Below, piece after piece: positions 7,488 to 25,980 of a DNA stretch of 64,000 bases. The DNA comes from an uncultured Gammaproteobacteria bacterium (lineage in GTDB: Bacteria > Pseudomonadota > Gammaproteobacteria > DRLM01): the NCBI GenBank assembly GCA_963729605.1, contig CAVSNY010000003.1, positions 352,001 to 416,000 of the forward strand. The letters are read 5' to 3'. A model generated the notes under the pieces. That model saw only the letters and a program-made list of their open reading frames with translations. It did no database searches and was not told where the DNA came from. A program made the position numbers and the translations under genes. Positions within the stretch are counted from its first letter, which is position 1. Each line of letters begins with the position of its first letter.

Positions 7488-9071
7488 TCACGTCTGGATC
7501 TGCCCGGCGATCTGTTGGATCTTGATCACCACGAACTCGGCGGGTTTGAGCGGCGCGAAGCCGACGACGATGTTGACGACCCCCGAGTTGATGTCGTTCT
7601 GCGTGGTGGTCTCCTTGTCACATTTGACGAAGTAGGCGTCGCGCGGACTGCTGCCTTGAAATGCGCCCTGGCGGAACAGGCCCTGCATGAAGGCGCCGAG
7701 GTTGAGACGGATCTGCGCCCACAGCGGTTCGTCGTTGGGTTCGAACACCACCCACTGCGTGCCGCGGAACAGGCTTTCTTCGAGAAACAGCGCGAGGCGC
7801 CGCACCGGCAGGTATTTCCACTCCGAGGCGAGCTGATCGGCGCCGCGCAGGGTGCGCGCGCCCCACACCACGCGGCCGATCACCGGAAAGCTGCGCAGGC
7901 AATTCACCGCGAGCGGATTGAGCTGGCCGTTTTCGCCGTCGGTGAGTTTGGTGGTGAGTTCGACCACGCCGTTGAGCACCGCGTCGTTGCCGGCCGGCGC
8001 CTTCCATACGCCGCGCTGGCCGTCGGTGCGCGCCATCACGCCGGCGACCGCGCCGCAGGGCGCGAAGTCGGCGAGGCGGTTTTCCTGCAAGGGGTCGGGC
8101 AGGCGCAGGCGCGGGAAATACAATGCGGCGTTTTCGCTGCGCGCCAGCCCCCAGGCCGCGCTGTCGAGACCCGCGGCGCCGGTGAGATCGGAGTGCAGAT
8201 TCCAGGTGCTGAGCGGATCGACCACGTACATCGCCCGGCGCTGTTTGCAGTATTGCGCGGCGGCGCTGCGGGTCTGCGCATTGACGTCGCCGCCGACCTC
8301 GCGGGTGAGCGGCGGAATGCAGAGCAGATTGAACAGGTCCGCCTTTTCCAGCGCCCAGATGCCCTGTTTCGCCGCTTCCAATGCGGCGAGCGAGATCTGG
8401 TTGTCGGTGATCGCCGCGCCTTCGTTGCCGGTGGCGGTGAAGGCGGTGGACGAGGCGTTGTCGAGCAGGGGATCGGCGCCGGCGGGCGGATTGCCGTGGG
8501 CGACGGGGCGCAGCGCCGGCACCGTGCCCGGCGGCGTGACGATGCGCACGAGCTGCGATTCCTGCTCCAATACCCGCGTGACGAAACGGGCGTTGTTGGG
8601 ATCGGTGGAGAGATTCACGTAGCGTTCGGTGACGCCGGTGGTGGTGTCGCGCACCGCGAGATTGAACAGGCTATTGGCCGGATCGGTGGCGAGCGACGGC
8701 CGCGTGTTGTGATCGACGCGCACTCGCAGTTTTTCGCCCCAACGCCCGGGACTCGCCGCGACCAGATTGAAACCCGCCGCGAGGGTGAGGGTGGCGGCGG
8801 CCGCGCCGTTGTGCACGCGCACGATCAGGGCGTCGGTGCCGCCGTTCTGAAAGAATTGCTGCACCGAGTAACTCATGCTGCTGTCGCGCCACAGGCCGCC
8901 GAAGACGCGCTCGAATTCGGCGTAGCTCTGCACGCGTACCGGCTCGTTGGCGGGCCCGCGCAGGGCGCGGCCGACGAAGGCGGTGATCGAGGTGGCGACG
9001 CCGGTGATGGTGCGGACCCCGCTCGGCACTTCTTCGATGTAGACACCGGGATAGGATAGGGTGACGGGCAT
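7488..9071 (-). CDS. contractile tail sheath protein
   Basis: MPVTLSYPGVYIEEVPSGVRTITGVATSITAFVG; RGVWKAPAG; WGARTL; WVVFEPNDEPLW; GFAPLKPAEFVV. Confidence 0.97.
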   Translation of the reverse strand: MPVTLSYPGVYIEEVPSGVRTITGVATSITAFVGRALRGPANEPVRVQSYAEFERVFGGLWRDSSMSYSVQQFFQNGGTDALIVRVHNGAAAATLTLAAGFNLVAASPGRWGEKLRVRVDHNTRPSLATDPANSLFNLAVRDTTTGVTERYVNLSTDPNNARFVTRVLEQESQLVRIVTPPGTVPALRPVAHGNPPAGADPLLDNASSTAFTATGNEGAAITDNQISLAALEAAKQGIWALEKADLFNLLCIPPLTREVGGDVNAQTRSAAAQYCKQRRAMYVVDPLSTWNLHSDLTGAAGLDSAAWGLARSENAALYFPRLRLPDPLQENRLADFAPCGAVAGVMARTDGQRGVWKAPAGNDAVLNGVVELTTKLTDGENGQLNPLAVNCLRSFPVIGRVVWGARTLRGADQLASEWKYLPVRRLALFLEESLFRGTQWVVFEPNDEPLWAQIRLNLGAFMQGLFRQGAFQGSSPRDAYFVKCDKETTTQNDINSGVVNIVVGFAPLKPAEFVVIKIQQIAGQIQT

Positions 9072-10168: not shown

Positions 10169-11203
10169 CTAAGAAGACTTAGGTAAACGCTTGAACTCCG
10201 TCCTGGCGAGTCCGTATTTTTTGATGAGCTTGCCCAGGGCGCTGCGTTCCTTGCCGGAAAGGTCGGCGGCCAGGCTGACATTGCCATGAGTTTCACTCAG
10301 CAAAGAGGAGAGGTAGGATTTTTCGAATTGGGCGATGGCGCGGGCCTTGGCGGTCTGAAAATCGCCGAGTGTGATCCGGCTGAGACTGCGCTCGGCCTTG
10401 CGGCGATCGTACACCGGTTTAGTCTCATCGAGACTAAACCGGATCAACGGATCATCGGACACCAGGAATTGCCGGTGGATGAGGTTCTCGAGTTCGCGCA
10501 CATTGCCCGGCCAACTATAACGTAGAAAGGCGCTGATGTTATCGGGATGCAATGAGCGTGGTGCTTGTTGGTATTCCTGGGCGAAGCGCGCGATGAAGTT
10601 TTCCGCGAGATGCAGCACATCGTCGCCGCGTTCCCGCAACGGCGGCAAATCCAGACATACCAGATTCAATCTAAATAACAGATCTTCGCGGAAGAGGCCC
10701 TTGTTCACCATGCCTCGCAGGTCGCGGTTGCTCGCGGTGATGATCCGCACGTCGGCGTGGCGGATGCGCCCGCCCACCGGGCGATAGGCGCGATCTTCCA
10801 AAAAGCGCAGCAACACGACCTGCGCCTTGGGACTCATGACTTCCACCTCGTCGAGAAGCAGGGTGCCGCCCTCGGCCTGCGCGATGATGCCGGCCCGCGC
10901 GACCTTGGCATCAGTGAATGCGCCGCGTTCGCAACCGAACAGTTCGCTTTCGAGCAAACCATCGGCGATGGCGCCGCAATTGATGGGAATGAAGGGTTGA
11001 TCGCTGCGCGCGCTAGAATAATGAATGGCGCGCGCCACCAATTCTTTACCGGTCCCCGTCTCGCCTTGGATCAACAAGGTGGCGTCGCGGGTGGCCAGTT
11101 TTTTAATCAGAGACAACACGTGTAAAAACGCCGGGGAGCACCCCACCAGCTGAGTATGCGTGCACTTTTCCGCGGGATTATTGAAATGAGACCCGAGCGC
11201 CAT
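10169..11203 (-). CDS. sigma54-dependent enhancer-binding protein lacking a sensory domain
   Basis: GETGTGKE, ESELFG..GAFTDA, WPGNVRELEN, C-terminal Fis-type HTH; only ~18 aa precede the AAA+ domain. Confidence 0.93.
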   Translation of the reverse strand: MALGSHFNNPAEKCTHTQLVGCSPAFLHVLSLIKKLATRDATLLIQGETGTGKELVARAIHYSSARSDQPFIPINCGAIADGLLESELFGCERGAFTDAKVARAGIIAQAEGGTLLLDEVEVMSPKAQVVLLRFLEDRAYRPVGGRIRHADVRIITASNRDLRGMVNKGLFREDLLFRLNLVCLDLPPLRERGDDVLHLAENFIARFAQEYQQAPRSLHPDNISAFLRYSWPGNVRELENLIHRQFLVSDDPLIRFSLDETKPVYDRRKAERSLSRITLGDFQTAKARAIAQFEKSYLSSLLSETHGNVSLAADLSGKERSALGKLIKKYGLARTEFKRLPKSS

Positions 11204-11748: not shown

Positions 11749-12139
11749 GGGGGAAGCTTGAGAAAGGTCAATGGTAATGATGATCATTGGTTGTTCGTGC
11801 TACTTAAATTAAGAGATTAAATGGGACGGCTATGTACTTCAAAACTTTTTAAGCATGAAAAACGATTGTAAGCGTCACGTTATTCATTATGAGCAGTGGG
11901 ATGCTAAATCACCTTTTAAATATTATCCATCACCAATTTCATTATTGCGCGATATTCCCGATTCCATTTCAAATGCGGAGGATATGGACTGAATAAACCC
12001 AAGCCATTTTTTGCCGCCTTTAATCGTAACGAACGATTGTTTGGCGCCATCTTGGTGCGCCGGGGTTGCATATCGGCTTTGTCCCGGTTGGGAACGTACA
12101 AAAATCCGCTCTTGTCTGGCCTTTGGGGGTCCATCCTAT

Positions 12140-12167
12140 TATGCGCATAATCATTACGGTGGTTGAA
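12140..12167 (+). other. dif-like attachment site (XerC arm and core intact, XerD arm degenerate)
   Basis: TATGCGCATAA-TCATTA-CGGTGGTTGAA shares TGCGCATAATCATTA (15 bp) with the site at 13954. Confidence 0.8.
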
Positions 12168-12520
12168 CTCGGCATGGTCATATTGCCCCCCTTGTGAGCA
12201 AAAAATAAAGGTTTTCGCAATGAAAAAAGCCTGTGCCTGCCCCAAAAGCGGTTTTGCAGGCGCGGGCTGACCTTGTAGAACACCCCTCGGCAGATGCCGC
12301 GCCGCCGCCGCTGCGGTAATTCGAGGCGTGGCAGGAAGAGTTAACAGCTTCGCTCCGCTACGCTCACCGGAGCGCCTTCGTCGCGATTGAATACCCACTG
12401 CCGTGGCAGGACACGAACGGCGCGGGTACGGTGGCTCGTGCCTCGCCATCCGGATCCGCGCCGCTGCGGCTACCCGTATCTCGGATCCTGATGCGACGGC
12501 TGTTTTTAACGATGCGGACC

Positions 12521-13108
12521 TCATACCACGTCATCCAGCGGTTGAGTGCATCGAAAGAAATCGTTGATCTCAAGGGACGGGTTATGCGTCATGTCATCCG
12601 GCCAGTCCTCGGGATACTCACCCAGGCGCTCGATGACCACCCGCCAGTCCCCCATGAACTCGATGCTAGCCACAATCGCCTGGGTGCCCACCGGCCAAAA
12701 GGCCCAAAAGGCCTCCTCCGGCGGTCCCCAGGGCGCGACCACCCGAAACTCGGCATGCAAAAGGCGCATGATGCGCCAGGGTTCCTTGGCGAGCAGATCC
12801 ACCAATTCGGAATGCGACGACACGCCAAACCACGCTTGAGACTGGGTGGGGACAGGCCCTTGCAACGGCACCGCAACCCCGGCGGCCTTGAGAATGGCGA
12901 GATGCTGAGGCCAGAGGGCAGGGGAGACCCGTTTACGGGCCTCCGCCCAACCCAGGGCGTTGGCAAGACACCACGTACCGTAAGCCCCACCCGCGAGCTC
13001 CGCCGGATCGGCCAACAGAGGGGCACCCACCGACGGCGAGAACACGGCGACCTGACACGCCTGGATCAGTCCAGCCGCAAAGACCCCTGAAATAAGATGG
13101 TCATTCAT
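12521..13108 (-). CDS. protein resembling the C-terminal (pX) part of filamentous phage II/X replication proteins
   Basis: 195 aa, GGGGAGG RBS. AYGTWCLANALGWAEARKRVSPALWPQHLAILKAAGV aligns without gaps, by eye, to the recalled Ff pX segment YFGFYRRLVNEGYDSVALTMPRNSFWRYVSALVECGI. Confidence 0.55.
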   Translation of the reverse strand: MNDHLISGVFAAGLIQACQVAVFSPSVGAPLLADPAELAGGAYGTWCLANALGWAEARKRVSPALWPQHLAILKAAGVAVPLQGPVPTQSQAWFGVSSHSELVDLLAKEPWRIMRLLHAEFRVVAPWGPPEEAFWAFWPVGTQAIVASIEFMGDWRVVIERLGEYPEDWPDDMTHNPSLEINDFFRCTQPLDDVV

Positions 13109-13528
13109 GGCTCAGACCTCCCCGATTGTGGTGGTGAGAATCAGGGCGAAAACCCGAAAGTGAGCCACCATGGCTCAAGAGTCCACTGGTTATAGTATGT
13201 GGACTCTCGTCATGCACCACGTCGGTGCAAGACGAAAAAGTGGGTACTTGCTCATGGCTCAGACCTCCCCGATTTGGGATGAAAAAGTCCCACCCGTGAG
13301 ACAAAGTGGGGGTTGTTACAGGGGACCCCCACTTAGCCGCGGCGATCACAAAGCGACCTTCATGCCAAGCTTCGGACTGGGTGCGTACTGACCCTTGAAA
13401 GGGGGAGGTGGCGGGATGCTTATTCATGGTTCAGCCCTCCCCGATGGTGGTGGTGAGTGCCACCCATGGCACTTAGTGCGGGTGTTACTGTTACCCGCAC
13501 ACCCCCGGCGATCACAAAGCGGCCTTCT
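13105..13528 (-). repeat. three tandem units, each a double hairpin (Ff-type plus-strand origin) followed by a shared RBS-ATG leader
   Basis: Hairpin pairs at 13160-13207, 13287-13334 and 13456-13500; 22-bp leader ATCGGGGAGGKCTGARCCATGA at 13105, 13252 and 13424. Confidence 0.85.
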
Positions 13529-13916
13529 TGCGTTGAAGCCTGTCCTGATTCCATTCGAGCTCCGCCTGGCCGAGCTGGTGGCGATAGTCGCGGATGAGCT
13601 GGTACAGGAAGGGCAACACCTGGATATCGCCCGGGGCGAGCCCACCCTTGGCGAAGCCCGGCGGGAACAAGTAGCCGTTGTGCACCTCCCAGCCGTCCCA
13701 GCCTGGCCAGGGCACATAGCCGGCCTGAATAGCCAGCAGTCGGAGCGCCGTGGGATTCACCGGCCGGTCGCGACCCCAGCGCCGGTAAGTCTGCTTGGCG
13801 ACCAGACAGAGGGCCGCCGCTTGCACGGTGCTGAGCCCGGCCAGCGTCTGCAAGGGCCGCGGGGTGGTCAAATTGCCCTGATAACCTGCTTGAAGCAACT
13901 CGGTTAACTCCCTCAT
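13512..13916 (-). CDS. filamentous phage DUF3653-like regulatory protein
   Basis: HTH-like LSTVQAAALCLVAKQTYRRW followed by WPGWDGWEVHNGYLFPPG (W.GW....G.L..P); lies next to dif as in inoviruses. Confidence 0.75.
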   Translation of the reverse strand: MRELTELLQAGYQGNLTTPRPLQTLAGLSTVQAAALCLVAKQTYRRWGRDRPVNPTALRLLAIQAGYVPWPGWDGWEVHNGYLFPPGFAKGGLAPGDIQVLPFLYQLIRDYRHQLGQAELEWNQDRLQRKKAAL

Positions 13917-13953
13917 GAGGTAGGCCCTTTATCGGATTTTGGCCCCCTCGCAT

Positions 13954-13981
13954 AGTGCGCATAATCATTATTATGTTAAAT
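13954..13981 (+). other. dif: dif site (XerC/XerD)
   Basis: AGTGCGCATAA-TCATTA-TTATGTTAAAT versus E. coli GGTGCGCATAA-TGTATA-TTATGTTAAAT; XerD arm identical. Confidence 0.93.
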
Positions 13982-14094
13982 TATGGAAGGGCCCAAGGTA
14001 ACAAAAGGTTTCTCCCACGAATTTTTCCTGCCCCACCACCATCGCGGAGCACCATGATTTCGCGGACAGCAATCGTCTGCTCGGACCTGGAATC

Positions 14095-14260
14095 ATTCGC
14101 CGAAGCCAGCCGTGATCATGGACCTAGTCCACTGGGTATTCCATACGCACATAGCGATGAAACGTCGAATGCGGCCATTCGCGCATTCGTTGTACCCATC
14201 CATGTTTCACGGGGGTGTAATGGATGTAGTTCACGCATCGCCCCAAGTCCGCTTCGGCGC
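14095..14260 (-). pseudogene. C-terminal remnant of a REP-associated tyrosine transposase (RAYT)
   Basis: DLGRCVNYIHYTPVKHGWVQRMREWPHSTFHRYV matches the RAYT YIHxNPVKHG...WPxSSFHRY pattern; N-terminus absent; decayed GTAG REP at ~14320-14349. Confidence 0.75.
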
Positions 14261-14490
14261 GGACCGGCGCGGTGTTCCCACAGGCCATATTCGCCTTTTC
14301 ACTACGGCGTTTACATTCGGCGGATCGCGTTGCACGCATCTGCCCTACGGCCCTTGGCCTCCCATGATCGCGTCATAAAGGAGTTTCCTTTTTAAGAACA
14401 TTGCCTTCTGTCAAATCAAAAAGCATCTCAAAAAGTTTTTCAGAATCCAATTCAGTAGAAAAAATTTCCAACCACAAGCCATCATGCCCC

Positions 14491-15808
14491 TGAACCGCCC
14501 CGTGTTTTGCGGAGGCTGTTTGGTTTAAGTCATGCTGCAATCGCAGCATGACGGCGGTATTGCCTGTAGTAGTTTGCCTCAGCTTCTGCTGGAGGGATAT
14601 ACCCCAGAGGCTCTAATAGCCGGTGGTGGTTAAACCACGAGACCCATTCCAGGGTCGCCAGCTCCACGGATTCCCGGGTTTTCCAGGGTCCCCGACGATG
14701 GATCAGCTCGGCCTTGTACAGCCCGTTGATCGTCTCGGCCAATGCGTTATCGTAGCTGTCGCCCTTGCTGCCGACCGAAGGCTCGATGCCGGCCTCGGCC
14801 AGTCGCTCGGTGTAGCGGATCGAGACGTATTGCGAGCCCCTGTCGCTGTGATGGATCAGGGCATCCTCTGGTTCGGGCTGCCGGGCGTACAGAGCTTGCT
14901 CCAGTGCGTCGAGCACGAAGTCCGTGGCCATGGTGCGGCTGACCCGCCAACCGACGATGCGCCGGGCGAAGACATCAATGACGAAGGCCACATACAGCCA
15001 GCCCTGCCAGGTCGACACATACGTGAAATCCGACACCCAGAGCTGGTTGGGCCTGTCCGCCTTGAACTGTCGATTGACCCGGTCCAGCGGGCGTGGCGCC
15101 GAGTGGTCAGGCACGGTGGTGCGAACCGCCTTGCCACGGCGCACACCCTGCAGGCCCAGGCGCTTCATCAGACGCTCGACCGTACAACGGGCCACCTCGA
15201 TGCCCTCGCGGTTCAGCTGCCGCCAGACTTTGTCGGCGCCGTACACCTGCAGGTGGGTGTGCCAGACACGCTGAATATGCGACATCAATACCTCATCGCG
15301 CTTGGCCCGGGCGCTGCGCAGATCCGGATCGCGCCGCCGGGCCGCATGGCGCCGGTAGGCCGATGGGGCAACCTGCAACACCTTGCAGATCGGCTCGACC
15401 CCATAAGCATCCCGGTGCTGGTCGATGTAGGTATTTACGACTTCAGTTTGCGGTCGAGCTCCGCCTGTGCGAAAAAAGCGCTGGCGGTACGCAGTATCTC
15501 ATTGGCGCGCCGCAACTCCTTGTTCTCGCGCTCCAGCTCCTTGATGCGCTGTGTCTCGGACGTGGTCGTGCCAGGACGCGCTCCGGCATCGGCCTCCGTA
15601 CGCTTAACCCACTCCAGCAGCGTCCCGGGTACACAGCCAATCTTCGGGGCGATCGACTCCACGGCCATCCACAACGACGGGTATTCCCCGCGATGCTCCT
15701 GCACCATTCGAACCGCACGTTCACGGACTTCAGGTGAAAACTTGTTCGACTTTTTCATGGCTCCATTCTCTCAAATGTTGGAGCCTCCTCAAAACCAGGG
15801 GCGGTTCA
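14491..15808 (-). mobile_element. IS3-family insertion sequence (1318 bp)
   Basis: Terminal IRs TGAACCGCCCCGTGTTTTGCGGAGGCT and AGCCTCCTCAAAACCAGGGGCGGTTCA, flanked by C runs (3-4 bp target duplication). Confidence 0.95.
14530..15758 (-). CDS. IS3 transposase OrfA (15435-15758) and OrfB (DDE), programmed -1 frameshift
   Basis: Orf[20 protein letters not shown]; Orf[26 protein letters not shown]; T6C run near 15471-15477. Confidence 0.93.
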
Positions 15809-16063: not shown

Positions 16064-16987
16064 ATGAAGCTTAAACGAATCGGTATTGATCTGGCAAAGA
16101 GCGTATTTCAGGCGCATGGCGTAGATAGTCATGAGCACGTCATGTTGAAGAAAAAGTTGAAACGTCATGAGGTGCTGAATTGTTTTCGCCAGATCGAACC
16201 CTGCGTGGTTGCGATGGAGGCTTGTGGCAGCGCCCACTACTGGGCTCGGGAGCTTGAGAAGCTCGGCCATCAGGCAAAACTGATTGCCCCACAATTTGTT
16301 AAGCCCTATGTGAAGAGTGGCAAAAACGACGCCAATGATGCCGAGGCTATCTGCGAGGCGGCCAGCCGTCCCGCCATGCGCTATGTTGCAGTGAAAACTG
16401 CCGAGCAACAGGCCGGACAGGCCTTGCATCGAGTCAGGAGCCGATTGGTCAAGGCACGCACCGCGCTGGAGGATGGCGAGAACGAGCTGCCGGGACCGAT
16501 GCGAGAACTGCTCGCTCAACTGTCAGAAGAGCTTGAGCAGAAAGATGTCCACATTGCCCTGCTGGATCGGCAGATCAAAAATCAGTGCGCTCAAGATGAG
16601 CGCATCAGACGCCTGATGGCGCTCGAAGGTGTCGGCCCCATCAGCGCCAGCGCGATAGTCTCAGCCATCGGTGATGCCCGCCAGTTCAAGAGTGGCCGGG
16701 ATCTGGCCGCCTGGTTGGGGCTGGTTCCCAGTCAACACTCCAGTGGTGGCAAGGAGCGATTGGGGGCGATCTCAAAGCGCGGCGACACATACCTGCGCAC
16801 CTTGTTGATTCATGGAGCACGCGCGGTGATCAGCCGCTGCGAAAAGAAAGAGGATCGTAAGAGCCAATGGCTCAAAGGAATCATGGCGAGGCGCAACAAG
16901 AATATCGCCACGGTAGCGCTTGCCAATAAAAACGCCCGTGTTATCTGGGCAGTTCTCAGTCGCGGTGAAAATTATCAGCCGGCCTGA
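16064..16987 (+). CDS. IS110 DEDD transposase, apparently with an in-frame internal deletion
   Basis: IGIDLAK, MEACGSAHYW, KNDANDAEAI, GLVPSQHSSGGK; 307 aa with KARTAL joined directly to EDGENELP. Confidence 0.92.
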   Translation: MKLKRIGIDLAKSVFQAHGVDSHEHVMLKKKLKRHEVLNCFRQIEPCVVAMEACGSAHYWARELEKLGHQAKLIAPQFVKPYVKSGKNDANDAEAICEAASRPAMRYVAVKTAEQQAGQALHRVRSRLVKARTALEDGENELPGPMRELLAQLSEELEQKDVHIALLDRQIKNQCAQDERIRRLMALEGVGPISASAIVSAIGDARQFKSGRDLAAWLGLVPSQHSSGGKERLGAISKRGDTYLRTLLIHGARAVISRCEKKEDRKSQWLKGIMARRNKNIATVALANKNARVIWAVLSRGENYQPA

Positions 16988-17461: not shown

Positions 17462-17914
17462 TTACGAAAGTTCAATCCAGTTTGGATGATCGCGAAGAGG
17501 AAAATTCTTTTTTAAATGTTTTTTTACTGAAGATAAATCTATATTGTCACAATCTGACGGGGATAACCCTATAGAAAGATTTTCCTGAGCAAGTTTAGAC
17601 TTCGCTTTTCTTAATAAAGGATTTGCGTAACAAATAAGGTATCTTTTATCTTCTTCTTGATACCGATGAGATAATCCAATTAGTCGGATAGCCATTTCCA
17701 AATTTTCAATGGCAGCTTGGTCTGCGGAAGTCGCATAACATAAAAAACCTTTTAGCAAATGGTATTCAGCCTTTTTACCAGAAAAATGTTGATCAATTTT
17801 CTCTAACTGCTGTAGAGCGGACTGGTAGTCGCCTTTCGACGCAAAATCAAGACTTCTGACCCATCGTAAAGCTATGCCAGGCGCTATAAAAATCTTCTTG
17901 AAAAAATAAGTCAT
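17462..17914 (-). CDS. putative immunity protein (TPR-like helical)
   Basis: 150 aa, AT-rich, 8 bp downstream of the toxin gene; KGDYQSALQQLEK...AEYHLLKGFLCY. Confidence 0.7.
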   Translation of the reverse strand: MTYFFKKIFIAPGIALRWVRSLDFASKGDYQSALQQLEKIDQHFSGKKAEYHLLKGFLCYATSADQAAIENLEMAIRLIGLSHRYQEEDKRYLICYANPLLRKAKSKLAQENLSIGLSPSDCDNIDLSSVKKHLKKNFPLRDHPNWIELS

Positions 17915-17922
17915 ATTGAAAC

Positions 17923-20900
17923 CTAATCCTTAAATACCTCAAATATTATTCTAACAATCTCCACAGCTTTTTCACCAAAGGTCCTCGGCGCAGGCGTAGG
18001 TTTTTGAGCCTCAGCAGCCCGTTTCAGACCCTCAAATAGCTGCGATTCAGCATACTTTACATCCAGAGTTCCAGCCTTAATTTTAGAAGCATTTATTTCG
18101 CACTGTTTTCGTAATAAGAGCTTTTGGGCGGGACTAAGACTTTGTCCAGCGACTTCCTTCAACAAAAAATTCAATTCACTCGTATTGCCTCTTAGAACAG
18201 CTTGGTAGACTGCCCCCTCAATTGAGTTCTTGGGTATGATCAAACCAGAGGGGTCGGTTAAATTAATCGGATCATTGAGCACGTAGGCATAAAGATTAGT
18301 TCCATCGCCTGCAAATAAAATCGGATCCTTCGCCGTCCACCTCCCCGTCTCCGCATCATAATCCCGCGCGCCGAAGCGGGTGAGCTTGGTATGCTGATCA
18401 TAGATACCGCCCGCAAAGCCAAACGGCTGGAAGCCGGGGTTGGTGTCTTGGGTAATATAGCCGAACTCATCGTAATCCAGTCGTTGAGCGATGGCTCCGG
18501 TGGTCGTATTGACGACCAGTCTCGGACTGCCCAAGTGATCAGAGAGAATGCGGTAGGTCTCGCCGCCTTTGATCAGGTAGTCCGGCACGTTGAGCTTGCT
18601 GCCGTAGACGAAGCGGGCGACGACGGCGCCGCTGCCGTTGAGTTCGGCGACGGGGTTGAGTTGGTCTTGGTAGAGGAAACCTTGAACCAGCGTGCCGTTG
18701 AGCTTTTTACCGACGCGACGGTTGCGGCCGTCGATGAGGTAGTCGATGATCGTGCCGCCGGGTAACGCGACGTGGCGCAGATTACCGATCACATCGTAGC
18801 TGTAAGTGGTGGTTGTTCCGGAAACGGTTTTGCTTAGCAATTCGCCGTTGGCGGTGTAGCCGTAGGCGGCGCCGTTGTAGCCGGTTAAACGATCTTGGGC
18901 GTCGACAGTGGCGGTGATGGCGCCGCGGCGGTCAAAGCCGCCGAGGCGGTTGCCGTTGCTGTCGTAGCTGTAGCTGGCGACGGTGGCGCCGTTTTGTTTG
19001 ATTTGGTAGAGCCGGCCCGGCGTGTCGTAGATGTAGTCATAGGTGGTGGTGACACCGGCTTGGGTCTCGATCTTTTGGGTGATGCGGCCGAGTTTGTCGC
19101 GGGTGTAAGCGGCGTTGTAAAGCGCGCTGCCGCTGTACGCCGCCGAGTGGCCGGCCAGTTCGGCGAAGCCATTGTAGCTTTGCGCGGTGCTGAGGTTGCC
19201 CAAAGCGGTGGCGGTGAGCAGGCCGTTCTGCGCATCACGAGTGAGGGTTACCGCGCCGGCTAGTGTCAGCAGGCCGTCGTTGTCGTAAGCGTAGTTGATG
19301 GCGCTGCCGTTGACGGATAAGCCAGTCACTTGAAACATGTTGTTGTAGGCGCGGCTGACGCTGCCGGCCACCGCCCCGCTCCAGGTTTCATTCACGGGCA
19401 GGAAGCCGTCGTAGGTGTAATCGAGGGTATCGCCCGACGGCGCGGTGAGGCGGGTCACTTGCCCACGAGTGGGATCATAGCTCACGGCGATTTGCCCCTG
19501 CGGCAAGACGACCGCGCTCAAACGGCCGCCGGTGTCGTAGCTGAAATCGATGCGCTGATTATCCGGCCGGGTGATTTGGGTGAGCTGCTTGTCGAGGTTA
19601 TAGCTGTAATGCGTGACCGTCGCGCCGCCGGACAGCGCGGGCGGCGTGTAGTGGTCTTGCTGATCGACGGCGGTGTAACTGAAGGTATGGGCGCCGCGGC
19701 CCGGCGGGGTGATCGAGGTCACGTTGCCGTTGGCGTCATAGCCGTAGGCGATGTGACGGCCGTCGGGCAAAGTCTGTTGCGTCACCCTGCCCGCGAGGTC
19801 GTATTGGAAGTTCATCGCCCGGCCGAGGGCGTCGGTGAGCGACGCGACGTAGCCGCCGGGGTTGTAGGCCAGCGCGACGGAACGCGCCGCCGCGCCCGTT
19901 CCCTGATTGATGCCTTGCAAACGGCCGCGGGCGTCGTAACTCCAATTGATCGCTTCGATACCGCTTGCCTGGGCAGTAACCAGACGGCCTTTGACGTCGA
20001 GGACCGCGCTGCTCTGCCGCGACAGCGGCGTGGTATCGGTGAAGGTGCGGTCGGCGGCGTTATAGCTGCTGGTATAACTGCGGCCGTTGATGCTGAGGGT
20101 CGTGGTCTCACTGGTCAGGCTGAGCGGATCGTGCGCCGTGGCGAGCGTGGCCGTGCGGGTGATCGTGGACGTTGATGTCAAACCGCTTGGCGTGGTGATG
20201 GTGGTATTTTTAGGCAAGGGCGCCTGCATGCCGAAGCGCGGATCGGGACCATGCAGGACGCTGATCATGGTGCCATCCGGTTCCAGCCGCGTCTCCGTGC
20301 CGTCGGGCTTGACGGTGGTAATGGCAAGGGTGCCGTCGGGCGCGGTGTTGGTGCGGCGCACATCACCGATCGGCAGCCGTTCCACCGCGTAACTGGTGGT
20401 GCGGCCCAGGGCCGAACTCATGCTGACGTGGTAGCCGGTTTCGAGATCGGCGCGGGTCAGGTTCCAGAAACCGCCCGCGGCGTTTTCATCGCGGGTCAGG
20501 CGACCGCGGGCATCATAGGTCATGTGCGAGGTGTGATTGCGCGGGTCGGTGAAGCTGAGCAGCAAGCCGTCGGCGGTATAAGTCGCTTGATAGGATTCGC
20601 CGGCGGGATTGGTGATGTGAGTGAGGTAGCCATTGGCGTTTAAGCTCAACGTAGTGCGTTGGCCGTCGGGCGCGACGATGGCGGTGGGTTGGCCAAGGCT
20701 GTCGCGTTCCACGGTAGTAACGTTATTGGTGCCATCGGTGACGGTGGTGAGGTAGCCATTAGCGTCATAGCTGAACTGGTAAAGCACGGCGCCGGTGCGA
20801 GCGTCAAGGGTGCGGAGATGGCGGCCGGAGGCGCTGAAGTGATAAAGTTCGGTGCCGTCACGCGATGCAATTAGAAAGTCACTAAGTGATATGCCCGGGA

Positions 20901-23900
20901 GAGTAGATGCTACCTTGCGGATACGAATATTGAATAAGTCCGCAATGTACAAATTGCCTTGTGCATCCGTTACTACACTTCGGGGGTTAAAAAACCTCGC
21001 CTGGGTGGCCGGTCCACCGTCGCCGCTGTAGCCCGGCGTACCTGTGCCTGCCAAGGTGGTGATACGCCCGTTGGAATCCACCTTACGGATACGCTGGTTG
21101 CCAGTGTCCGCAATGTACAGACTACCCTGTGAGTCCAAAGTTATGTCGGTAGGATTTGCTAGCCCGGCTTCGGTAGCGGGTCCGCCATCGCCGAAATTGC
21201 CAAAGTTCCCCCCTGCGACGGTTGTGATGTCTCCATTAGGACTTACCTTGCGGATGCGCTGATTGTTTGTGTCCACGATGTATAAATTACCCTCGAGGTC
21301 CAGCGCTATACCATGAGGTTGATTTATTTTGGCCTGTAAAGCCGGTCCGCCATCACCACTGTAGCCATCCACGCCTGTGCCTGCGATGGTGGTAATGCGC
21401 CCGGCGGGGTCTACTTTGCGGATGCGGCTGTTGAATGAGTCCGCGATGTAAAGATTGTTCTGGCCATCTACCACTACACTCCGAGGGTTAGAAAGTCTGG
21501 CCTGGATGGCGGGTCCGCCATCGCCACTGTAGCCCTGCTCACCTGTACCAGCTACTGTGGTGATGTACCCGGTAGGGTCCATTTTTCGGATGCGCTGGTT
21601 GCCAGTGTCCACGATATACAGATTACCCTGGGTATCCACTGCCACATCGGAAGGAGCAGCAAGCATAGCCTGGATGGCGAGCCCGCCGTCCCCGGCGTAT
21701 CCTGATTCACCGACACCAACTACAGTGGTGATTATTCCGGTGGGATATACCTTGCGTATGCGCTGGTTATTTAAATCTGCGATGTAAAAACTGCCCTCTG
21801 CATCCACCGTCACTGCCCATGGGGAATAAAACATAGCCTCAGTGGCGAGTCCGCCGTCGCCGCTATTGCCGAAAGCTGTCTGACCTGTTCCCGCCACGGT
21901 AGTAATTACCGTATCAGCTCCATTTCCCTGGCTAATTCTAGTGGTGCCGTCGCCTATTTGGAGCACTAAGCCTGCGCTGTCATACTGATGGTGCACATTT
22001 AATGTCCATCCACTCATGCCGTGAGCTTTAACATCCTCGTTTTTTATCGACTTAGAATGGTTTTGCCATAACGTGATTTCCTGACGGGCGATATTTCCAG
22101 TCATAGGCGTACCATTTGAAAAAGCGGCAAATGCCGATCCCGATGATAATGATATTGGGGTTAGATAAACTCCGTTATAAACATAACCGATCTTAATCGT
22201 CCCTGTTTGTGTACCCTGCAACGAGTTACCGTAGTCATCGCTGCCATCCCAGATAAAAGTGTAGTGTTGATTCGGCAGTGCGGCGAAGCTTTGAAAAAAT
22301 CGCTGCCCTGCCACCTCGATGATGAGTTCGATACGCTTGAGGCTGGCGGGCACGGTGGTGTTGCTCAAAGGGATGTTCACCGTGTAGCCGGCTTTGTGGC
22401 CGGGCACGCGGTCGCTGCGATAATGCAATGAGAACGGGGTGCCGGTAATGGGCACGGTCTCACCGAGCACCTGGTTCTGGCACTCGATAATGGAGCCCTG
22501 CTCACACTCCGGCTCGTCTTCTTTGATTTCGACCTTGGGAGGCGACGGTGGATTGGGTGGCGTCGCGTCCGGCGGCGGGCCGAAAGGCCAGTTGCAATCC
22601 CAGGGTGTGAAGTGGATGACGGGCACGCGCCACAGGCTTTTGCCGGGCGAATACAGCGTGGCAAGTTGGGCGCGTTCGGCGTCGGTGATGGTGAGCGCCG
22701 CGAGGGCGGCGGCGTTGGCGGGGTTGCCGCTGCCGTCAAGGTCGAGATTGGCGAGGCCGTTGTTGATGCTCAGCACCTTGATGATGCGGCCGTTGTCGGA
22801 CGGGATCCACGCCGCTCGTTCGCGGTTGTAATACCCCGCCGGCACGATGCCGCCCACCGGAAAGTTCAGGAAATTATCGACGTAGAAATAAACCGGTTGA
22901 GTGAAGCGCACGTCTTTGGCGCCGGCGGCGATGGCTTCGTCGACGCTGAGCTCCACGGCGTAGGTGTAACCGCTATTGGGCGGCAATGCGCCGGGCATGG
23001 TGTTGGGACCGTTGGCGCCCACGGTGTATTCGGTGGCGCGCACGTGCAAGCTGGTCAAGGGCTGCGTCGAGCCGTCTGCCAGCACCATCTCCGCTTGCGT
23101 GCCTTGCGGGAAGAGGATGGTGGCCTGGCGGGTGCCGTCGCTGTCGGTGACCACGTTGCCCCGCGCCGCTTGCATGGGAATGGCGGCTTGCAGATTGATG
23201 GCCGTCACTTGGCTGTCGACCGGAATCATCACTACCTCGGGCAGCCAGGCGTAGTCCTGCCAGGGCGCGTTGACTTGGCGCTGTACCGGCAGGTAACCGT
23301 CTTTTTGATAGTTCACGGTGAGATAACCGCCGCCGTTGACGGCGAGATCGAACATGCCGTCGGCACGGCTCAAGGTCTGACCGAATTCGGGGTGTTGATG
23401 AATGGTGACGGTGACGCCGCCGAGTGCGGCATTGTTGCGATCCAGCACCTTGCCGCGCAATACCGCGGCGCGGCGGGCTTCGATGGTACCTTGCGTCACG
23501 CCGGTTTGAATGGGGTTGCTACCGGTATAAAGAAACTTAGTCGCGGCGAAAACCGTGGTGGCGACGGTGGGGTCCACCGGCGGTGCGACGGTCGCCGGAT
23601 CCGGCGGCAGCGATGAAGTTACCGAGGTGCTGGCGGGCGCGCTGGTATTGCCGGCGGTGTCATTGACGCGGATGGTCAAGGTATCGCCGCCCTGCGCGGC
23701 GATGTTGGCGTTGAAGGCGCCGAGGCTGTTGGCCGTCGCCATCACGATGTCGCCGGTGCGGGTGTTGGTGAGGGTGACCCGTGCGCCCGCCTCCACGCTG
23801 CCGGCGGCGCCGGTGACGTTGACGATGCCATTGCTCGGTTCACTCACCGATACCGATCCCATCTGCACGGCGGCGGGTGCCTGGGTGTCGAGCACCAGGG

Positions 23901-25602
23901 CGAATAACTTCTGCGCGGTTTCTCCACCGGTGGCGGTGGCGATGAAAGTGAAGTTGTTGTTGCCTTCGCTCAACGAAACGTTTTTGGTGAAGCTGTTATC
24001 GGCGGCCACGGTCAACGGTGCGTTGTTGACGATGAGGGTCGCCGGTTTGCTGAGATGGCCGCTGATGGTTTGCGCCGCGAGATTGGTGACGTAGCCAGTG
24101 GGCGGCGTGTCGATGGTGACGCTCAGTGGGATGATGCCGTATTTCGAAAGAAATATATCGGTAAGGCCGACCGCGCTCCGGGAATCAATGGCGGTGCCGG
24201 GATCAAAATCGATGGTCCCGCCAAAATCACCCGTGATGTAAGCGGCGGTTGCCGATGCCGCCACCGCATTGACGGCCGGGTTACCGGAACCGCCGATGCT
24301 GCGGGTCCATTGGTAGGTGCCGTCGGCCTGAAACAAAGTGAGAAAGGCGCCGGTTCCCGCGGGAAGGCTGCGTATATCCTGGCCCGTGCCGGGATCGAAA
24401 TCCACCGTTCCTGCGAACACGCCGCTCACCAGGACACCTTCGCTACTCAGGCTTACCACGCCCCGCCCCTCGTCTTGACCGGCGCCGCCGAGGGTGCGCG
24501 TCCAAAGGTAATTACCGTCAGCCGCCAATTTGGTGAAAAAGATATCGTTAACGCCGTTGCTGGCGCGGACATCAGTGCCGGTGCCGGAAAAATCGACACT
24601 GCCGGTGAATTTACCGGTCACGTAAACCCCACCACTGCCGTCTACCGCGACACCTTTACCCTCACCGCTGCCGGAGCCGATGAAGGTGCGGGTCCAGCCG
24701 TAGCTGCCGTCGCCAAGATATTTGCTGACGAACACGTCGCTGCCGCCGGAGGAGGTATGGATATCGGTGTCGGGACCGGGATCGAAGTCCGTGTTGTTCT
24801 GGTAATAACCGGTGATATACGCGGCGCCGCTGGCATCCACCGCGACACCCTGGCCCGCGTCCCAGTGCGTGCTGCCAACGGTGCGCGTCCAGCCATAATC
24901 ACCGTTAGGCAGCAGTTTGGTGAGAAAGATGTCGTAGCCGCCTACCGCGTTGCGAATGTCGGGCGGACCACCGGCATTAAAATCCACATTGCCATTGAAC
25001 CGCCCGGTGAAGAAGATGTTGCCGGCGGCATCCACGGCGACGGCGTAGACCGCGTCCGGACTTGCACCGCCGAAGGTGCGGACCCAGCCATAACTACCGT
25101 CGGCATTCAATTTGAGCAGAAAACCGTCGTAACTGCCGCTGGTCGTGCGATTGTCCACCCCCGGACCCGGATCGAAATCCACCGTGCTGCTCGAAAATTC
25201 ACCGGCGACGAACACATTCCCGGAAGCATCCACGGCAACGCCATAGGCGAAATCGCTGCTGACACCGCCTACGGTTTTGGTCCAGCCATAACTACCATCC
25301 GCGTTGGTCTTGGTAATGAAGATATCGTCGAGACTGCCCACCGCAGTACGCTGATCGATACCGGTGCCTGGATTGAAATCGACCGTACCCCGGAAGGAGC
25401 CCACATGATAAATATTACCTTGGCCGTCGACGGCGACACCTTTGCCGGAGTCTGACTTACTACCGCCGACAATAGTTGTCCACTGGTAGGTGGGGTCGGC
25501 TTGTGAAAACGCGGGGATTAATAAGAAACCAAGAAAGGTTATGAGGGTGAACAGCCCATGCGCCACTCTACGCACGGCCGCTCCATGCCGGATAGGGTTC
25601 AT
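17923..25602 (-). CDS. teneurin-like YD/RHS-repeat protein with beta-propeller, Ig-like and NHL domains and a C-terminal toxin domain
   Basis: Signal peptide; SBBP-type repeats (GVAVDxxGNxY.. VDFDPG); NHL repeats (GYSGDGGPA, LYIADxxNxRIRKV); YD repeats; RHS core RFGARDYD...[10 protein letters not shown]; RBS GGGAGGAG before ATG 25602. Confidence 0.93.
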
Positions 25603-25980
25603 CGTCTCCTCCCTGATCAACGATAAATTTTGTTATTCTGGCTCGTTCTTTTATAGCTCGATTACTTTTTTCGCTTCACGCCTTGTCCCTGGCGCGACCC
25701 CTGCAACGAACTTTTATTACAACCAGTAAATTAGCTTGTTCTTAATTTTTCATGAATAACGCGCGATAGTCATTTTTCGAAAAGCCTAGTACCAAATTTT
25801 ATAAAACGCAAATTTTTAAAGACACCAACGACCCTGCGTGCCATCCCTCCTTGCGACAAGCGGATAATAACATCACCAGCAACGGCGGCCACGCGGTTCG
25901 AAACGAGTCGAACGGTCAACACTTCAAATGCTGACGGGCCGCCGGCAGTGGAAGATTACGTCAATGATCTATATTGTTCC

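What the first reader, a model, noticed from the sequence alone, without database searches (positions are those of the whole stretch)
13105..13528. Array of three sequence-divergent Ff/M13-like plus-strand origins
Seen on the minus strand: unit 1 AGAGTCCAC-ATACTATAACCA-GTGGACTCT then TGAGCCA-TGG-TGGCTCA; unit 2 AAGTGGGGGT-CCCCTGTAACA-ACCCCCACTT then GTCTCAC-GG-GTGGGAC; unit 3 GTGCGGGT-AACAGTAAC-ACCCGCAC then AGTGCCA-TGGG-TGGCACT. Stems differ completely but pairing is kept, and each large loop holds TAAC. Known (recalled from memory): the f1 origin is GAGTCCAC-GTTCTTTAATA-GTGGACTC-TTGTTCCAAACTGGAACAA, nicked by pII in the loop; unit 1 has the same stem and the same D-then-E hairpin layout. Inference: a collection of origins with different Rep specificities separated by a constant 22-bp repeat, like a cassette memory of helper or target phages.
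Basis: partly seen in the sequence, partly recalled or inferred. Interest (0 to 1): 0.88.

Follow-up and report, generated by a model that had tools for sequence, protein, structure and literature searches.

The report
Three filamentous-phage replication origins at dif
The three hairpin pairs are replication-origin modules of the M13 type, stacked inside a tiny virus-derived element that sits at the chromosome's dimer-resolution site and has no replication gene of its own, so it probably depends on helper filamentous phages.

Summary
Three hairpin pairs lie on the minus strand at 13161-13207, 13287-13334 and 13456-13500. A loose pattern for such pairs finds 15 places in the 3.48 Mb genome, 3 of them here.

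They are best read as plus-strand origin cores of the Ff/G2P type. The same module lies between a XafT-like gene and a G2P (PF05144) rep gene in related dif-integrated elements, including one complete inovirus, L044. Stems covary strongly. A model built without M13 picks the M13 core origin as its top hit.

- Unit 1 is 45/47 identical to the origin of an 8-kb viral contig.
- Unit 2 is 40/48 identical to another viral contig.
- Unit 3 shares its stem with a third element.
- 10 of 10 downstream ORFs in the viral contigs are G2P reps.

The array lies in a 1.8-kb Xer-integrated element at the unique chromosomal dif. That element carries a XafT-like gene and a gene-X-like protein but no rep. An empty site and a two-unit variant exist in metagenomes.

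The "22-bp repeat" is the ribosome site plus ATG of the downstream gene. The spacers are gene fragments, so the array arose by recombination between tandem elements. "Cassette memory" is unsupported.

The parts
13954..13981 (+). Chromosomal dif site: XerC arm AGTGCGCATAA, central TCATTA, XerD arm TTATGTTAAAT. It forms the right end of the integrated element.
   Evidence: It is the only full match in the genome. It lies at the peak of cumulative GC skew of contig C3. One such site was found in 9 of 12 genomes of the family. 26 of 37 related loci have a canonical dif 38-473 nt upstream of the XafT-like gene, 25 of them in the same orientation.
13512..13916 (-). XafT-like gene (P0004, 134 aa; HTH plus DUF3653-like core). 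Probable Xer activation factor of the element.
   Evidence: tblastn hits the TLC-Kn1 VC1465-like protein at E 2e-3. hhalign of the family alignment A1 against that protein gives probability 95.4%, E 1.7e-8. 7 of 24 family members hit PF12375 DUF3653 and 16-17 hit HTH models. VC1465 = XafT according to passages of PMC6744903.
13456..13500 (-). Origin-like unit 3: nick-loop hairpin GTGCGGGT/ACCCGCAC with loop AACAGTAAC, then AGTGCCA-TGGG-TGGCACT.
   Evidence: Sequence. Model R1 scores it 58.2 bits. The first stem is the same as in L032, where a rep-like ORF follows 87 nt on. This unit is absent from the two-unit variant in run X2.
13335..13455 (-). Mosaic spacer: a copy of the SD+ATG and first codons of the P2-type gene, a 39-nt internal piece of a P2-type gene, and a 38-nt copy of the 3' end of the XafT-like gene.
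   Evidence: Repeat families D1 (13415-13457, 88%), D3 (13365-13403 against 12830-12868, 77%) and D2 (13328-13365 against 13494-13531, 82%).
13287..13334 (-). Origin-like unit 2: AAGTGGGGGT/ACCCCCACTT with loop CCCCTGTAACA, then GTCTCA(C)-(G)GG-TGGGAC with one T.G.
   Evidence: Sequence. R1 scores it 52.5 bits. 40/48 identical to viral contig L365, which has a G2P rep downstream and also matches the dif/xafT start of the window.
13208..13286 (-). Spacer with a second SD+ATG copy, a short open frame unrelated to known genes, and an extra small hairpin.
   Evidence: D1 copy 13243-13285. Extra hairpin in the DNA fold. In runs X2 and X3 this spacer is replaced by about 30 other letters.
13161..13207 (-). 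Origin-like unit 1: AGAGTCCAC/GTGGACTCT with loop ATACTATAACCA, then TGAGCCA-TGG-TGGCTCA. This is the M13-like one.
   Evidence: Sequence. 34/47 identical to the M13 core origin. 45/47 identical to L131 and 43/47 to L223 and L183, with homology confined to the unit. R1 scores it 25.2 bits.
12521..13108 (-). P2 gene (P0002, 195 aa). The N-domain is homologous to the gene-X / C-terminal part of G2P reps. The C-terminal alpha/beta domain has no known function.
   Evidence: No Pfam hit of its own. 32% identical to the L004 ORF. BLASTP to the L031 rep, residues 275-314, gives E 3e-6. The family profile finds 122 representatives, and 10 of 10 tested long ones are PF05144 reps. hhalign to the rep alignment gives probability 97.8%, E 6.8e-13, inside the PF05155 stretch of L131. 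AF2 mean pLDDT is 78.6.
12168..12520 (-). Non-coding tail of the element. The ORF 11916-12524 here looks spurious.
   Evidence: No Pfam or PHROG hit. The DNA fold is not exceptional, z = -1.76. The role is unknown. No packaging signal or minus-strand origin was identified.
12140..12167 (+). Left attachment site: the same XerC arm type and central region (TATGCGCATAA TCATTA) with a degenerate XerD arm (CGGTGGTTGAA).
   Evidence: It is the only other match to the XerC arm plus central region in the genome. In run X1 a contig joins the flank 12113-12137 directly to 13953 onward, which is an empty site.

Best explanation
The three units are plus-strand origin cores of the Ff/G2P kind. Each has a hairpin whose loop carries the nick motif, predicted by alignment to M13 to be cut at T|AAC(A). 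Directly after it comes a short inverted repeat, the probable Rep-binding site.

The units sit in a 1.8-kb inovirus-derived element integrated by XerCD at the chromosomal dif. The gene order is dif, XafT-like gene, unit 3, unit 2, unit 1, P2 gene, degenerate dif-like site.

The element has no rep gene and no virion genes. Inferred, not shown: after Xer-mediated excision it can be copied only by a G2P protein supplied in trans by a helper inovirus. P2, which carries a gene-X-like domain, probably modulates that Rep.

The array arose when related elements integrated in tandem at dif and then recombined or suffered deletions. These events kept the origin cores and shredded the genes between them.

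The three cores resemble the origins of three different inovirus lineages, so they may answer to different Reps. Whether all three are in use is open.
For: Shown by calls:
1. Anatomy and non-randomness.
2. The same module lies between a XafT-like gene and either a G2P rep or a P2 gene in related loci. The script pattern found 42 hits in 29 loci, of which I set 3 aside as unrelated by context. Reps next to it are PF05144. L044 is a complete inovirus: G2P, G5P (PF02303), DUF2523 and Zot/pI follow the module.
3. Covariation on 58 model matches (48 distinct rows): 86.2% of cells are paired against 60.8% in shuffles. 13 of 14 pairs show compensatory change. The score is 0.548 against 0.145, reached by 0 of 500 shuffles, and slid controls reach at most 0.143. 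By my sum of the per-pair counts, G.U pairs number about 16 of roughly 557 paired cells, which fits DNA pairing. 56 of the 58 matches lie on the XafT strand.
4. M13: unit 1 aligns at 34/47. R1, which has no M13 among its seeds, ranks the M13 core origin first in its intergenic region at 10.3 bits, E 0.01. The pII cut site TTCTTT|AATA is from passages of PMC4403547.
6. Integrated element: the dif is unique and lies at the skew switch. There is a degenerate second site. XafT homology is supported. The left flank is syntenic with a dif in sister genome G001. An empty-site contig exists in run X1.
7. No PF05144 and no Zot in the genome, which is 94.5% complete.
8. P2's N-domain corresponds to the gene-X part of G2P.
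9. XafT-then-P2 without a rep recurs in 10 loci, plus the left element of L044.
10. The spacers are gene fragments. Unit number varies: a contig in run X2 lacks exactly 13340-13505. L004 has two units with a rep 5' fragment between them.
Against: - No nicking, replication or packaging was observed. Trans-replication is inference only.
- No helper phage is present in this genome.
- No packaging signal or minus-strand origin was found.
- No P2 or XafT relative was found in the viral-contig collection by the pattern-based scans, so there is no sign the element is ever packaged.
- In L044 the P2 gene next to the complete inovirus is preceded by a rep 5' fragment with no origin module of its own. 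In the related element L004, the module in front of P2 differs from the rep-proximal type in one first-stem pair and in the second hairpin. Cognate pairing with a neighbouring phage is therefore unproven.
- The same second hairpin (GTCTCA..TGAGAC) occurs with reps that are only about 20-25% identical. Which part of the module sets specificity is unknown.
- Unit 1 is the weakest match to the family model at 25.2 bits. M13 was not found when 594 kb was searched.
- Covariation of both arms would also be expected for a palindromic protein-binding site. The covariation alignment was fitted to the model.
- Most P2-type elements carry one unit, so extra units may be passengers.
Confidence: 0.7

Rival explanations
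1. Relics only. The units are origin cores by descent, left over from three collapsed prophage-like elements, and none is used today. The element would be a dead remnant at dif.
For: The spacers are shredded gene pieces. No rep or helper is present in the genome. Most P2-type elements need only one unit. Insertion sequences and rearrangements surround the locus.
Against: All six stems are intact apart from one T.G, while the coding sequence between them is destroyed. The XafT-like and P2 genes are open and belong to conserved families. Units 2 and 1 are kept together in run X2, with 4 and 2 changed letters, although the spacer between them is replaced. Run X3 keeps unit 1 and the start of the same replacement spacer. 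The element is polymorphic (present or absent), which suggests recent mobility.
Confidence: 0.15
2. Operators. The inverted repeats are double-stranded binding sites for dimeric HTH proteins (the XafT-like protein or a phage repressor) that control the downstream rep or P2 gene. Their divergence would then reflect hetero-immunity rather than origin specificity.
For: The module lies directly in front of the rep or P2 start codon. Both arms change together and G.U pairs are rare, which a palindromic protein site would also show. HTH proteins are encoded on both sides in the L031-type elements.
Against: The loop is asymmetric and is the most conserved part (TAAC-A is invariant across 28 units). 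That fits a nick site, not an operator spacer. The layout and 34/47 positions match the M13 origin, whose cut site is reported in PMC4403547. Units with the same first hairpin occur in viral contigs that share nothing else with the window element.
Confidence: 0.08
3. RNA elements. The hairpins act in the transcript as terminators, attenuators or stabilisers between the XafT-like gene and the next gene.
For: They lie between co-oriented genes. The second hairpin of unit 2 is followed by TTTTT and is called terminator-like.
Against: Only 1 of 3 units has a T-run (3 terminator-like sites in 12100-14050, two of them overlapping calls on unit 2 and the third elsewhere, against 1.7 expected). No Rfam family matches at E <= 1. 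G.U pairs are rare. The loop sequence is conserved and the module resembles M13.
Confidence: 0.04
4. One reading: an ordered, adaptive record of helper or target phages, with origins stored between constant repeats.
For: Three different origin types lie in a row. Unit number varies between populations. The unit 1 core matches foreign phages only over the 42-47 nt of the unit itself.
Against: The 'constant repeat' is a ribosome site plus start codon. The spacers are pieces of neighbouring genes, as expected from unequal recombination between tandem elements. The 166-nt difference from the two-unit variant is bounded by the 38-nt repeat at the XafT gene's end. No acquisition machinery is present.
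Confidence: 0.03

Closest known systems
Core plus-strand origin of Ff phages (M13/f1/fd), nicked by pII (G2P)
   Same: Same layout: a hairpin with the cut site in its loop, followed at once by a short inverted repeat, on the coding strand upstream of the rep gene. Unit 1 shares the 8-bp stem and 34/47 positions with M13. The family model finds the M13 origin as its top hit in the M13 intergenic region.
   Different: Here there are three in a row, 127 and 166 nt apart, in an element without a rep gene. The loop motif is ..GTAAC(A) or ..ATAACCA rather than the M13 loop. Units 2 and 3 have G+C-rich stems unrelated to M13. No A+T-rich enhancer region was identified. Nicking is untested.
TLC-phi of Vibrio cholerae (a XafT-dependent satellite integrated by Xer at dif)
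   Same: A small element integrated at dif, with one canonical dif and one site with a degenerate XerD arm. It has a XafT-type gene next to the XerC arm and no virion genes, and it occurs in arrays with other such elements.
   Different: TLC-phi encodes its own rolling-circle initiator, Cri (passages of PMC6744903). This element has none and instead carries a protein with only the gene-X-like part of a rep. It is also much smaller (1.8 kb) and lives in a different host group.
Miniphages (defective interfering genomes) of M13 and Pf4, and engineered two-origin microphage replicons
   Same: Rep-less derivatives that keep origins and depend on a full phage (passages of PMC7064744). With two plus-strand origins, the segment between the two cut sites is copied as a circle (passages of PMC4403547).
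   Different: Those arise in laboratory passage, are not integrated, and carry copies of one origin. Here the origins are of different types, the element is chromosomal at dif, and it keeps two genes.
Rep-less DNA satellites of begomoviruses (functional analogy only)
   Same: Satellites that share only the origin with their helper virus (start of the abstract of PMC12193555, search listing; I did not read the paper). That they are copied by the helper's Rep is recalled.
   Different: Eukaryotic viruses with an unrelated Rep family. No homology is implied.

Membership tests
Ff/G2P-type plus-strand origin core | Hairpin with a conserved asymmetric loop carrying the cut motif, immediately followed by a short inverted repeat | tested here: met
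   All three units. TAAC-A is invariant across the 28 aligned units. Covariation of both helices.
Ff/G2P-type plus-strand origin core | Lies on the coding strand just upstream of a G2P (PF05144) rep gene in phage genomes | tested here: met
   Met in relatives, not in the window itself. L031, L044 and L017. 10 of 10 viral contigs with unit-1-like or unit-2-like modules have a G2P rep starting 3-460 nt downstream. In the window the following gene is P2, not a rep.
Ff/G2P-type plus-strand origin core | Sequence likeness to an experimentally defined origin | tested here: met
   Unit 1 against M13: 34/47. Model R1 top hit on the M13 origin, 10.3 bits, E 0.01 in 1 kb. Weak for units 2 and 3 (13-16 identities).
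Ff/G2P-type plus-strand origin core | Nicked by, and supports rolling-circle synthesis with, the cognate G2P | not testable with these tools
   Needs purified Rep proteins or in vivo trans-replication assays.
Xer-integrated mobile element (IMEX) of the TLC-phi/XafT type | Inserted at the chromosomal dif, flanked by a canonical dif and a dif-like site with a degenerate XerD arm | tested here: met
   Empty site in run X1. Syntenic flank with dif in G001.
Xer-integrated mobile element (IMEX) of the TLC-phi/XafT type | Encodes a XafT-type factor (HTH + DUF3653) next to the attachment site | tested here: met
   hhalign to the TLC VC1465-like protein, probability 95.4%. DUF3653 hit in 7 of 24 family members, but none for P0004 itself. 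Next to dif in 26 of 37 loci.
Xer-integrated mobile element (IMEX) of the TLC-phi/XafT type | FtsK-independent, XafT-activated XerD-first recombination | not testable with these tools
   Biochemical or genetic assay needed.
Known inovirus satellites (TLC-phi, RS1) | Carries its own rolling-circle initiator | tested here: not met
   No PF05144 match in the genome. The only match to a relative's rep is the X-like stretch of P2. It therefore works like a satellite but is not a member of these families.
Intrinsic terminator | G+C-rich hairpin followed by a T-run | tested here: not met
   Only the second hairpin of unit 2 qualifies.
Curated RNA families (Rfam 15) | Match to any covariance model | tested here: not met
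   No match at E <= 1 in 12100-14050. The only gathering-level hit in the window is the ALIL pseudoknot of the IS3 element.

The most novel reading that the evidence does not exclude
The array is a working 'set of keys'. A rep-less, Xer-integrated inovirus satellite has collected origin cores of three unrelated G2P lineages, so any of three kinds of helper phage can replicate it in trans. Its X-like protein would bias the helper's Rep in its favour. Origin cores would then behave as transferable modules of about 47 nt: unit 1 matches phages of much lower G+C content over the unit only. A mirror-image reading, that the host benefits because chromosomal origin copies at dif misdirect the Rep of invading inoviruses, is also not excluded.
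Probability: 0.25. Interest if true: 0.8.

Novelty: new variant of a known kind. Interest (0 to 1): 0.62.

Why it matters
Filamentous-phage origins are defined experimentally for very few phages. This locus and its relatives give a recognisable, covarying origin module for a wide set of uncultured inoviruses, with a predicted cut site.

The work also uncovers a recurrent family of minimal elements at dif: a XafT-like gene, one origin module and a gene-X-like protein, with no rep (10 loci plus the left element of L044). I did not find such elements described in five literature searches, though supplements were closed.

If the stacked origins are used, this would be a natural satellite that depends on its helper's initiator. 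It would offer a simple system for asking how Rep-origin specificity evolves and how parasites of filamentous phages spread.

If the origins are only relics, the locus still records how tandem elements at dif recombine.

Tried and rejected
- **Rfam.** Gathering scan of the whole window and E-value scan of 12100-14050: nothing at the units.
- **Terminator scan.** Only unit 2 qualifies.
- **blastn of the 445-nt array against 50,697 phage records.** Only chance-level short hits. M13 is too short a match to appear there.
- **Foldseek of the P2 model against PDB and BFVD.** No match at E <= 0.001. The weak rows (WYL-type activators, SH3-like barrels) are leads only.
- **Pattern-based scans of viral contigs.** None found for the XafT family or the P2 family.
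- **Unit 3 stem pattern in viral contigs.** 89 stretches, none with the rest of the unit. The best is 34 of 45, and the hits are mostly on large contigs.
- **Shuffle control of unit 1 against M13.** Uninformative: the gapped aligner gave up to 33 identities on shuffles, so I do not use it.
- **P2 in the window's own taxonomic order.** Present only in the window's genome, 1 of 12.
- **Tail of the element, 12160-12530.** No exceptional fold.
- **RNA evidence.** No RNA holder was listed among the sequencing runs.
- **Integron attC sites.** Considered from the sequence only and set aside. I ran no integrase or attC search.
- **Closed resources.** Supplements of papers were closed. The supplementary lists and tree of DUF3653 proteins in PMC6744903 may already include relatives of this family.
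Full report
**The observation.**
- Unit 1 lies at 13161-13207, unit 2 at 13287-13334 and unit 3 at 13456-13500.
- A loose script pattern for such pairs finds 15 places on both strands of the 3,475,565-base genome, three of them here within 340 nt.
- As single-stranded DNA the region folds far better than shuffles: z = -5.48, and 0 of 100 shuffles fold as well.

Two details need correcting.
- The first stems of units 2 and 3 differ by a single compensated base pair, so only unit 1 is wholly different.
- The '22-bp constant repeat' is the Shine-Dalgarno sequence plus ATG of the downstream gene type. It is identical in two copies and has two mismatches in the third.

**The surroundings.**
- The gene just upstream (13512-13916, minus strand, 134 aa) is a relative of XafT, the Xer activation factor of the Vibrio satellite phage TLC-phi.
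  - tblastn hits the VC1465-like gene of TLC-Kn1.
  - A profile of 24 family members aligns to that protein with 95.4% probability.
  - 7 of 24 members hit DUF3653 and 16-17 hit HTH models.
  - Passages of PMC6744903 say that VC1465 encodes XafT, made of an HTH and DUF3653, and that homologues cluster next to dif.
- Directly upstream of this gene lies a canonical dif site (13954-13981). It is the only one in the genome and sits where the cumulative GC skew of the contig peaks.
- A second site at 12140-12167 has the same XerC arm type and central region but a degenerate XerD arm.
- In 26 of 37 related loci from other genomes, a canonical dif lies 38-473 nt upstream of the XafT-like gene, in 25 of them in the same orientation.
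- In a same-genus genome, the flank on the sigma-54 activator side is syntenic and runs into that genome's dif.
- In sequencing run X1, a contig joins the window's left flank (12113-12137) directly to the dif.

The 1.8 kb between the two sites is therefore an element inserted by Xer recombination, and it is present in some populations and absent in others.

**What the units are.**
- The same hairpin pair lies just after the XafT-like gene in many related loci. It has different stems but a conserved loop ending in GTAAC or GTAGC.
- It is followed either by a rep gene of the G2P family (PF05144) or by a homologue of the window's 195-aa gene, here called P2.
- Locus L044 is a complete inovirus. 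After the module come G2P, the single-strand-binding protein G5P, a 441-aa protein, DUF2523 and the Zot/pI assembly ATPase.
- A covariance model built from 28 units finds 58 matches in 594 kb of related loci. 56 of them are on the strand of the XafT gene.
- On these matches 86.2% of cells pair, against 60.8% in shuffles. 13 of 14 pairs show compensatory change. The covariation score is 0.548 against 0.145, reached by 0 of 500 shuffles, and slid controls reach at most 0.143.
- G.U pairs are rare.
- This alignment was fitted to the model, so it leans towards the structure.

**Likeness to M13.**
- I read the M13 origin from its record rather than from memory.
- Unit 1 aligns to it at 34 of 47 positions, with the same 8-bp stem and the same hairpin-then-inverted-repeat layout.
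- The family model has no M13 among its seeds. It ranks the M13 core origin first in the M13 intergenic region at 10.3 bits, E 0.01 over 1 kb. M13 did not appear when 594 kb was searched.
- Passages of PMC4403547 give the pII cut site as TTCTTT|AATA. In the alignment this corresponds to T|AAC(A) in the loops here. This is a prediction, not a result.

**Each unit matches a different phage.** I scanned the viral-contig collection for the three stems and compared the hits with the units.

| Unit | Best matches | What follows the match |
|---|---|---|
| 1 | L131 (8,067 nt) 45/47; L223 and L183 43/47; several more contigs of 4-14 kb | G2P + G2P_X_C reps of about 400 aa |
| 2 | L365 (7,336 nt) 40/48 | G2P rep 270 nt downstream |
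| 3 | No good viral-contig match; first stem shared with L032 | Rep-like ORF 87 nt downstream |

- Within the unit-1-like group the first hairpin and loop stay the same, while the second hairpin changes with compensation.
- All 10 ORFs tested downstream of unit-1-like or unit-2-like modules are G2P reps, 9 of them with the G2P_X_C domain. They start 3-460 nt after the module.
- Homology between the window and the unit-1-like phages (G+C 0.38-0.52) is confined to the 42-47 nt of the unit.
- L365 also matches the dif/xafT start of the window.
- The rep of L365 and the Chromatiaceae-type reps are about 20-26% identical to the L131 rep.

**The element lacks a rep.**
- The genome (94.5% complete) has no PF05144 and no Zot match.
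- The only match to a relative's rep is a 41-residue stretch inside P2.
- P2 has no Pfam hit of its own, but its N-domain is homologous to the C-terminal, gene-X part of G2P reps:
  - BLASTP gives E 3e-6 and 3e-8.
  - A family profile finds many proteins of 330-420 aa through their C-terminal regions, and 10 of 10 tested are PF05144.
  - hhalign gives 97.8% probability, E 6.8e-13, aligning P0002 residues 26-79 to L131 rep residues 309-351. That lies inside the rep's PF05155 match at 303-389.
- The AlphaFold model of P2 (mean pLDDT 78.6) shows a helical N-domain and an alpha/beta C-domain. Fold searches gave nothing at E <= 0.001.
- The order XafT-like gene, module, P2, with no rep, recurs in 10 loci plus the left element of L044. 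Most of these have one module.

**How the array arose.**
- The stretch between units 3 and 2 is fully accounted for by three pieces: a copy of the P2 start region, a 39-nt internal piece of a P2-type gene, and a 38-nt copy of the end of the XafT-like gene. These pieces are 77-88% identical to the intact genes.
- In run X2, a contig reads XafT gene end, unit 2, about 30 other letters, unit 1, P2. It lacks exactly 13340-13505, a 166-nt step bounded by the 38-nt repeat.
- Unit number therefore varies between populations: two or three.
- In L004 two modules are separated by the first ~20 nt of a rep gene. Its two halves are 96.5% and 94.6% identical to two neighbouring elements of L044.
- Passages of PMC9226527 describe arrays of such elements formed by successive integrations at dif.
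- The simplest reading is that related elements integrated in tandem and then recombined or suffered deletions, keeping the modules.

**Mechanism: what is inferred.**
- The element would be excised by XerCD with its XafT-like factor.
- It would then be replicated from whichever module a co-infecting inovirus's G2P recognises.
- P2 would act on that Rep as gene X protein is thought to act on pII.

None of these steps was observed. The points that weigh against the reading are these:
- No helper is in this genome.
- No packaging signal or minus-strand origin was found.
- No relative was found in viral contigs.
- The module in front of P2 in L004 differs from the module of the L044 inovirus.
- The same second hairpin occurs with very different reps.

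**Rivals.**
- The units may be relics only.
- The inverted repeats may be operators for HTH proteins. Concerted change of both arms and the rarity of G.U pairs would fit this too. The conserved asymmetric loop and the M13 likeness speak against it.
- They may be RNA hairpins. Only unit 2 has a T-run, and no Rfam family matches.

**Novelty and limits.**
- Xer-integrated phages, XafT and the Ff origin are known. The rep-less XafT-module-P2 family and a stack of unlike origins in one such element did not turn up in five literature searches.
- I rate this a new variant of a known kind.

Noticed in passing
window 17923-25620 (-), 17462-17914 (-): A 2565-aa protein with teneurin-like NHL, TTR, FN-plug and YD-shell/RHS repeats: a polymorphic-toxin-type shell protein. 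It is followed by a 150-aa ORF with no family, possibly an immunity gene.
   Followed up: no
window 14530-15758 (-) and 16064-16987 (+): An IS3-family element (transposase orfA and orfB, with the ALIL frameshift pseudoknot RF01497 at 15364-15480) and an IS110-family transposase lie between the dif locus and the toxin gene.
   Followed up: no
window 7488-9071 (-) and 10169-11203 (-): A phage-tail-sheath-like protein and a sigma-54-dependent activator. This is probably part of a contractile injection system cluster next to the terminus.
   Followed up: no
window 13965-13970 and 12151-12156: The central region of this genome's dif is TCATTA. Six of the eight relatives with a site have TGTATA, or TATATA in one, and two (the same-genus genome among them) have TGTTTA. 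The element may have changed the host's dif, as is described for TLC-phi.
   Followed up: partly
genome contigs C2:162037-162098, C5:122807-122885, C6:119229-119291, C7:727573-727635, C7:495390-495451: Another, unrelated family of paired hairpins (long stem around GTTAAC, then a ..GCGAAAA..TTTTCGC.. hairpin) recurs at at least five places in the genome. Its nature is unknown.
   Followed up: no
L010 3377-3427 and 5889-5939; L031 7715-7765 and 10229-10279; L131 298-349: Rep-carrying relatives often hold a second origin-like module: about 300 nt after the rep gene in the 2.5-kb tandem elements, and 2.1 kb before the rep-proximal one in L131. Its role (terminator, second origin or other) is open.
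   Followed up: partly
window 13210-13236 (-): An extra small hairpin lies just upstream of unit 1 in the single-strand DNA fold. It is not part of the family model.
   Followed up: no
window 14140-14380 (-): By eye, the translated sequence right of dif resembles the C-terminal part of an IS200-like or REP-associated tyrosine transposase. This is from reading only; no tool test was run.
   Followed up: no
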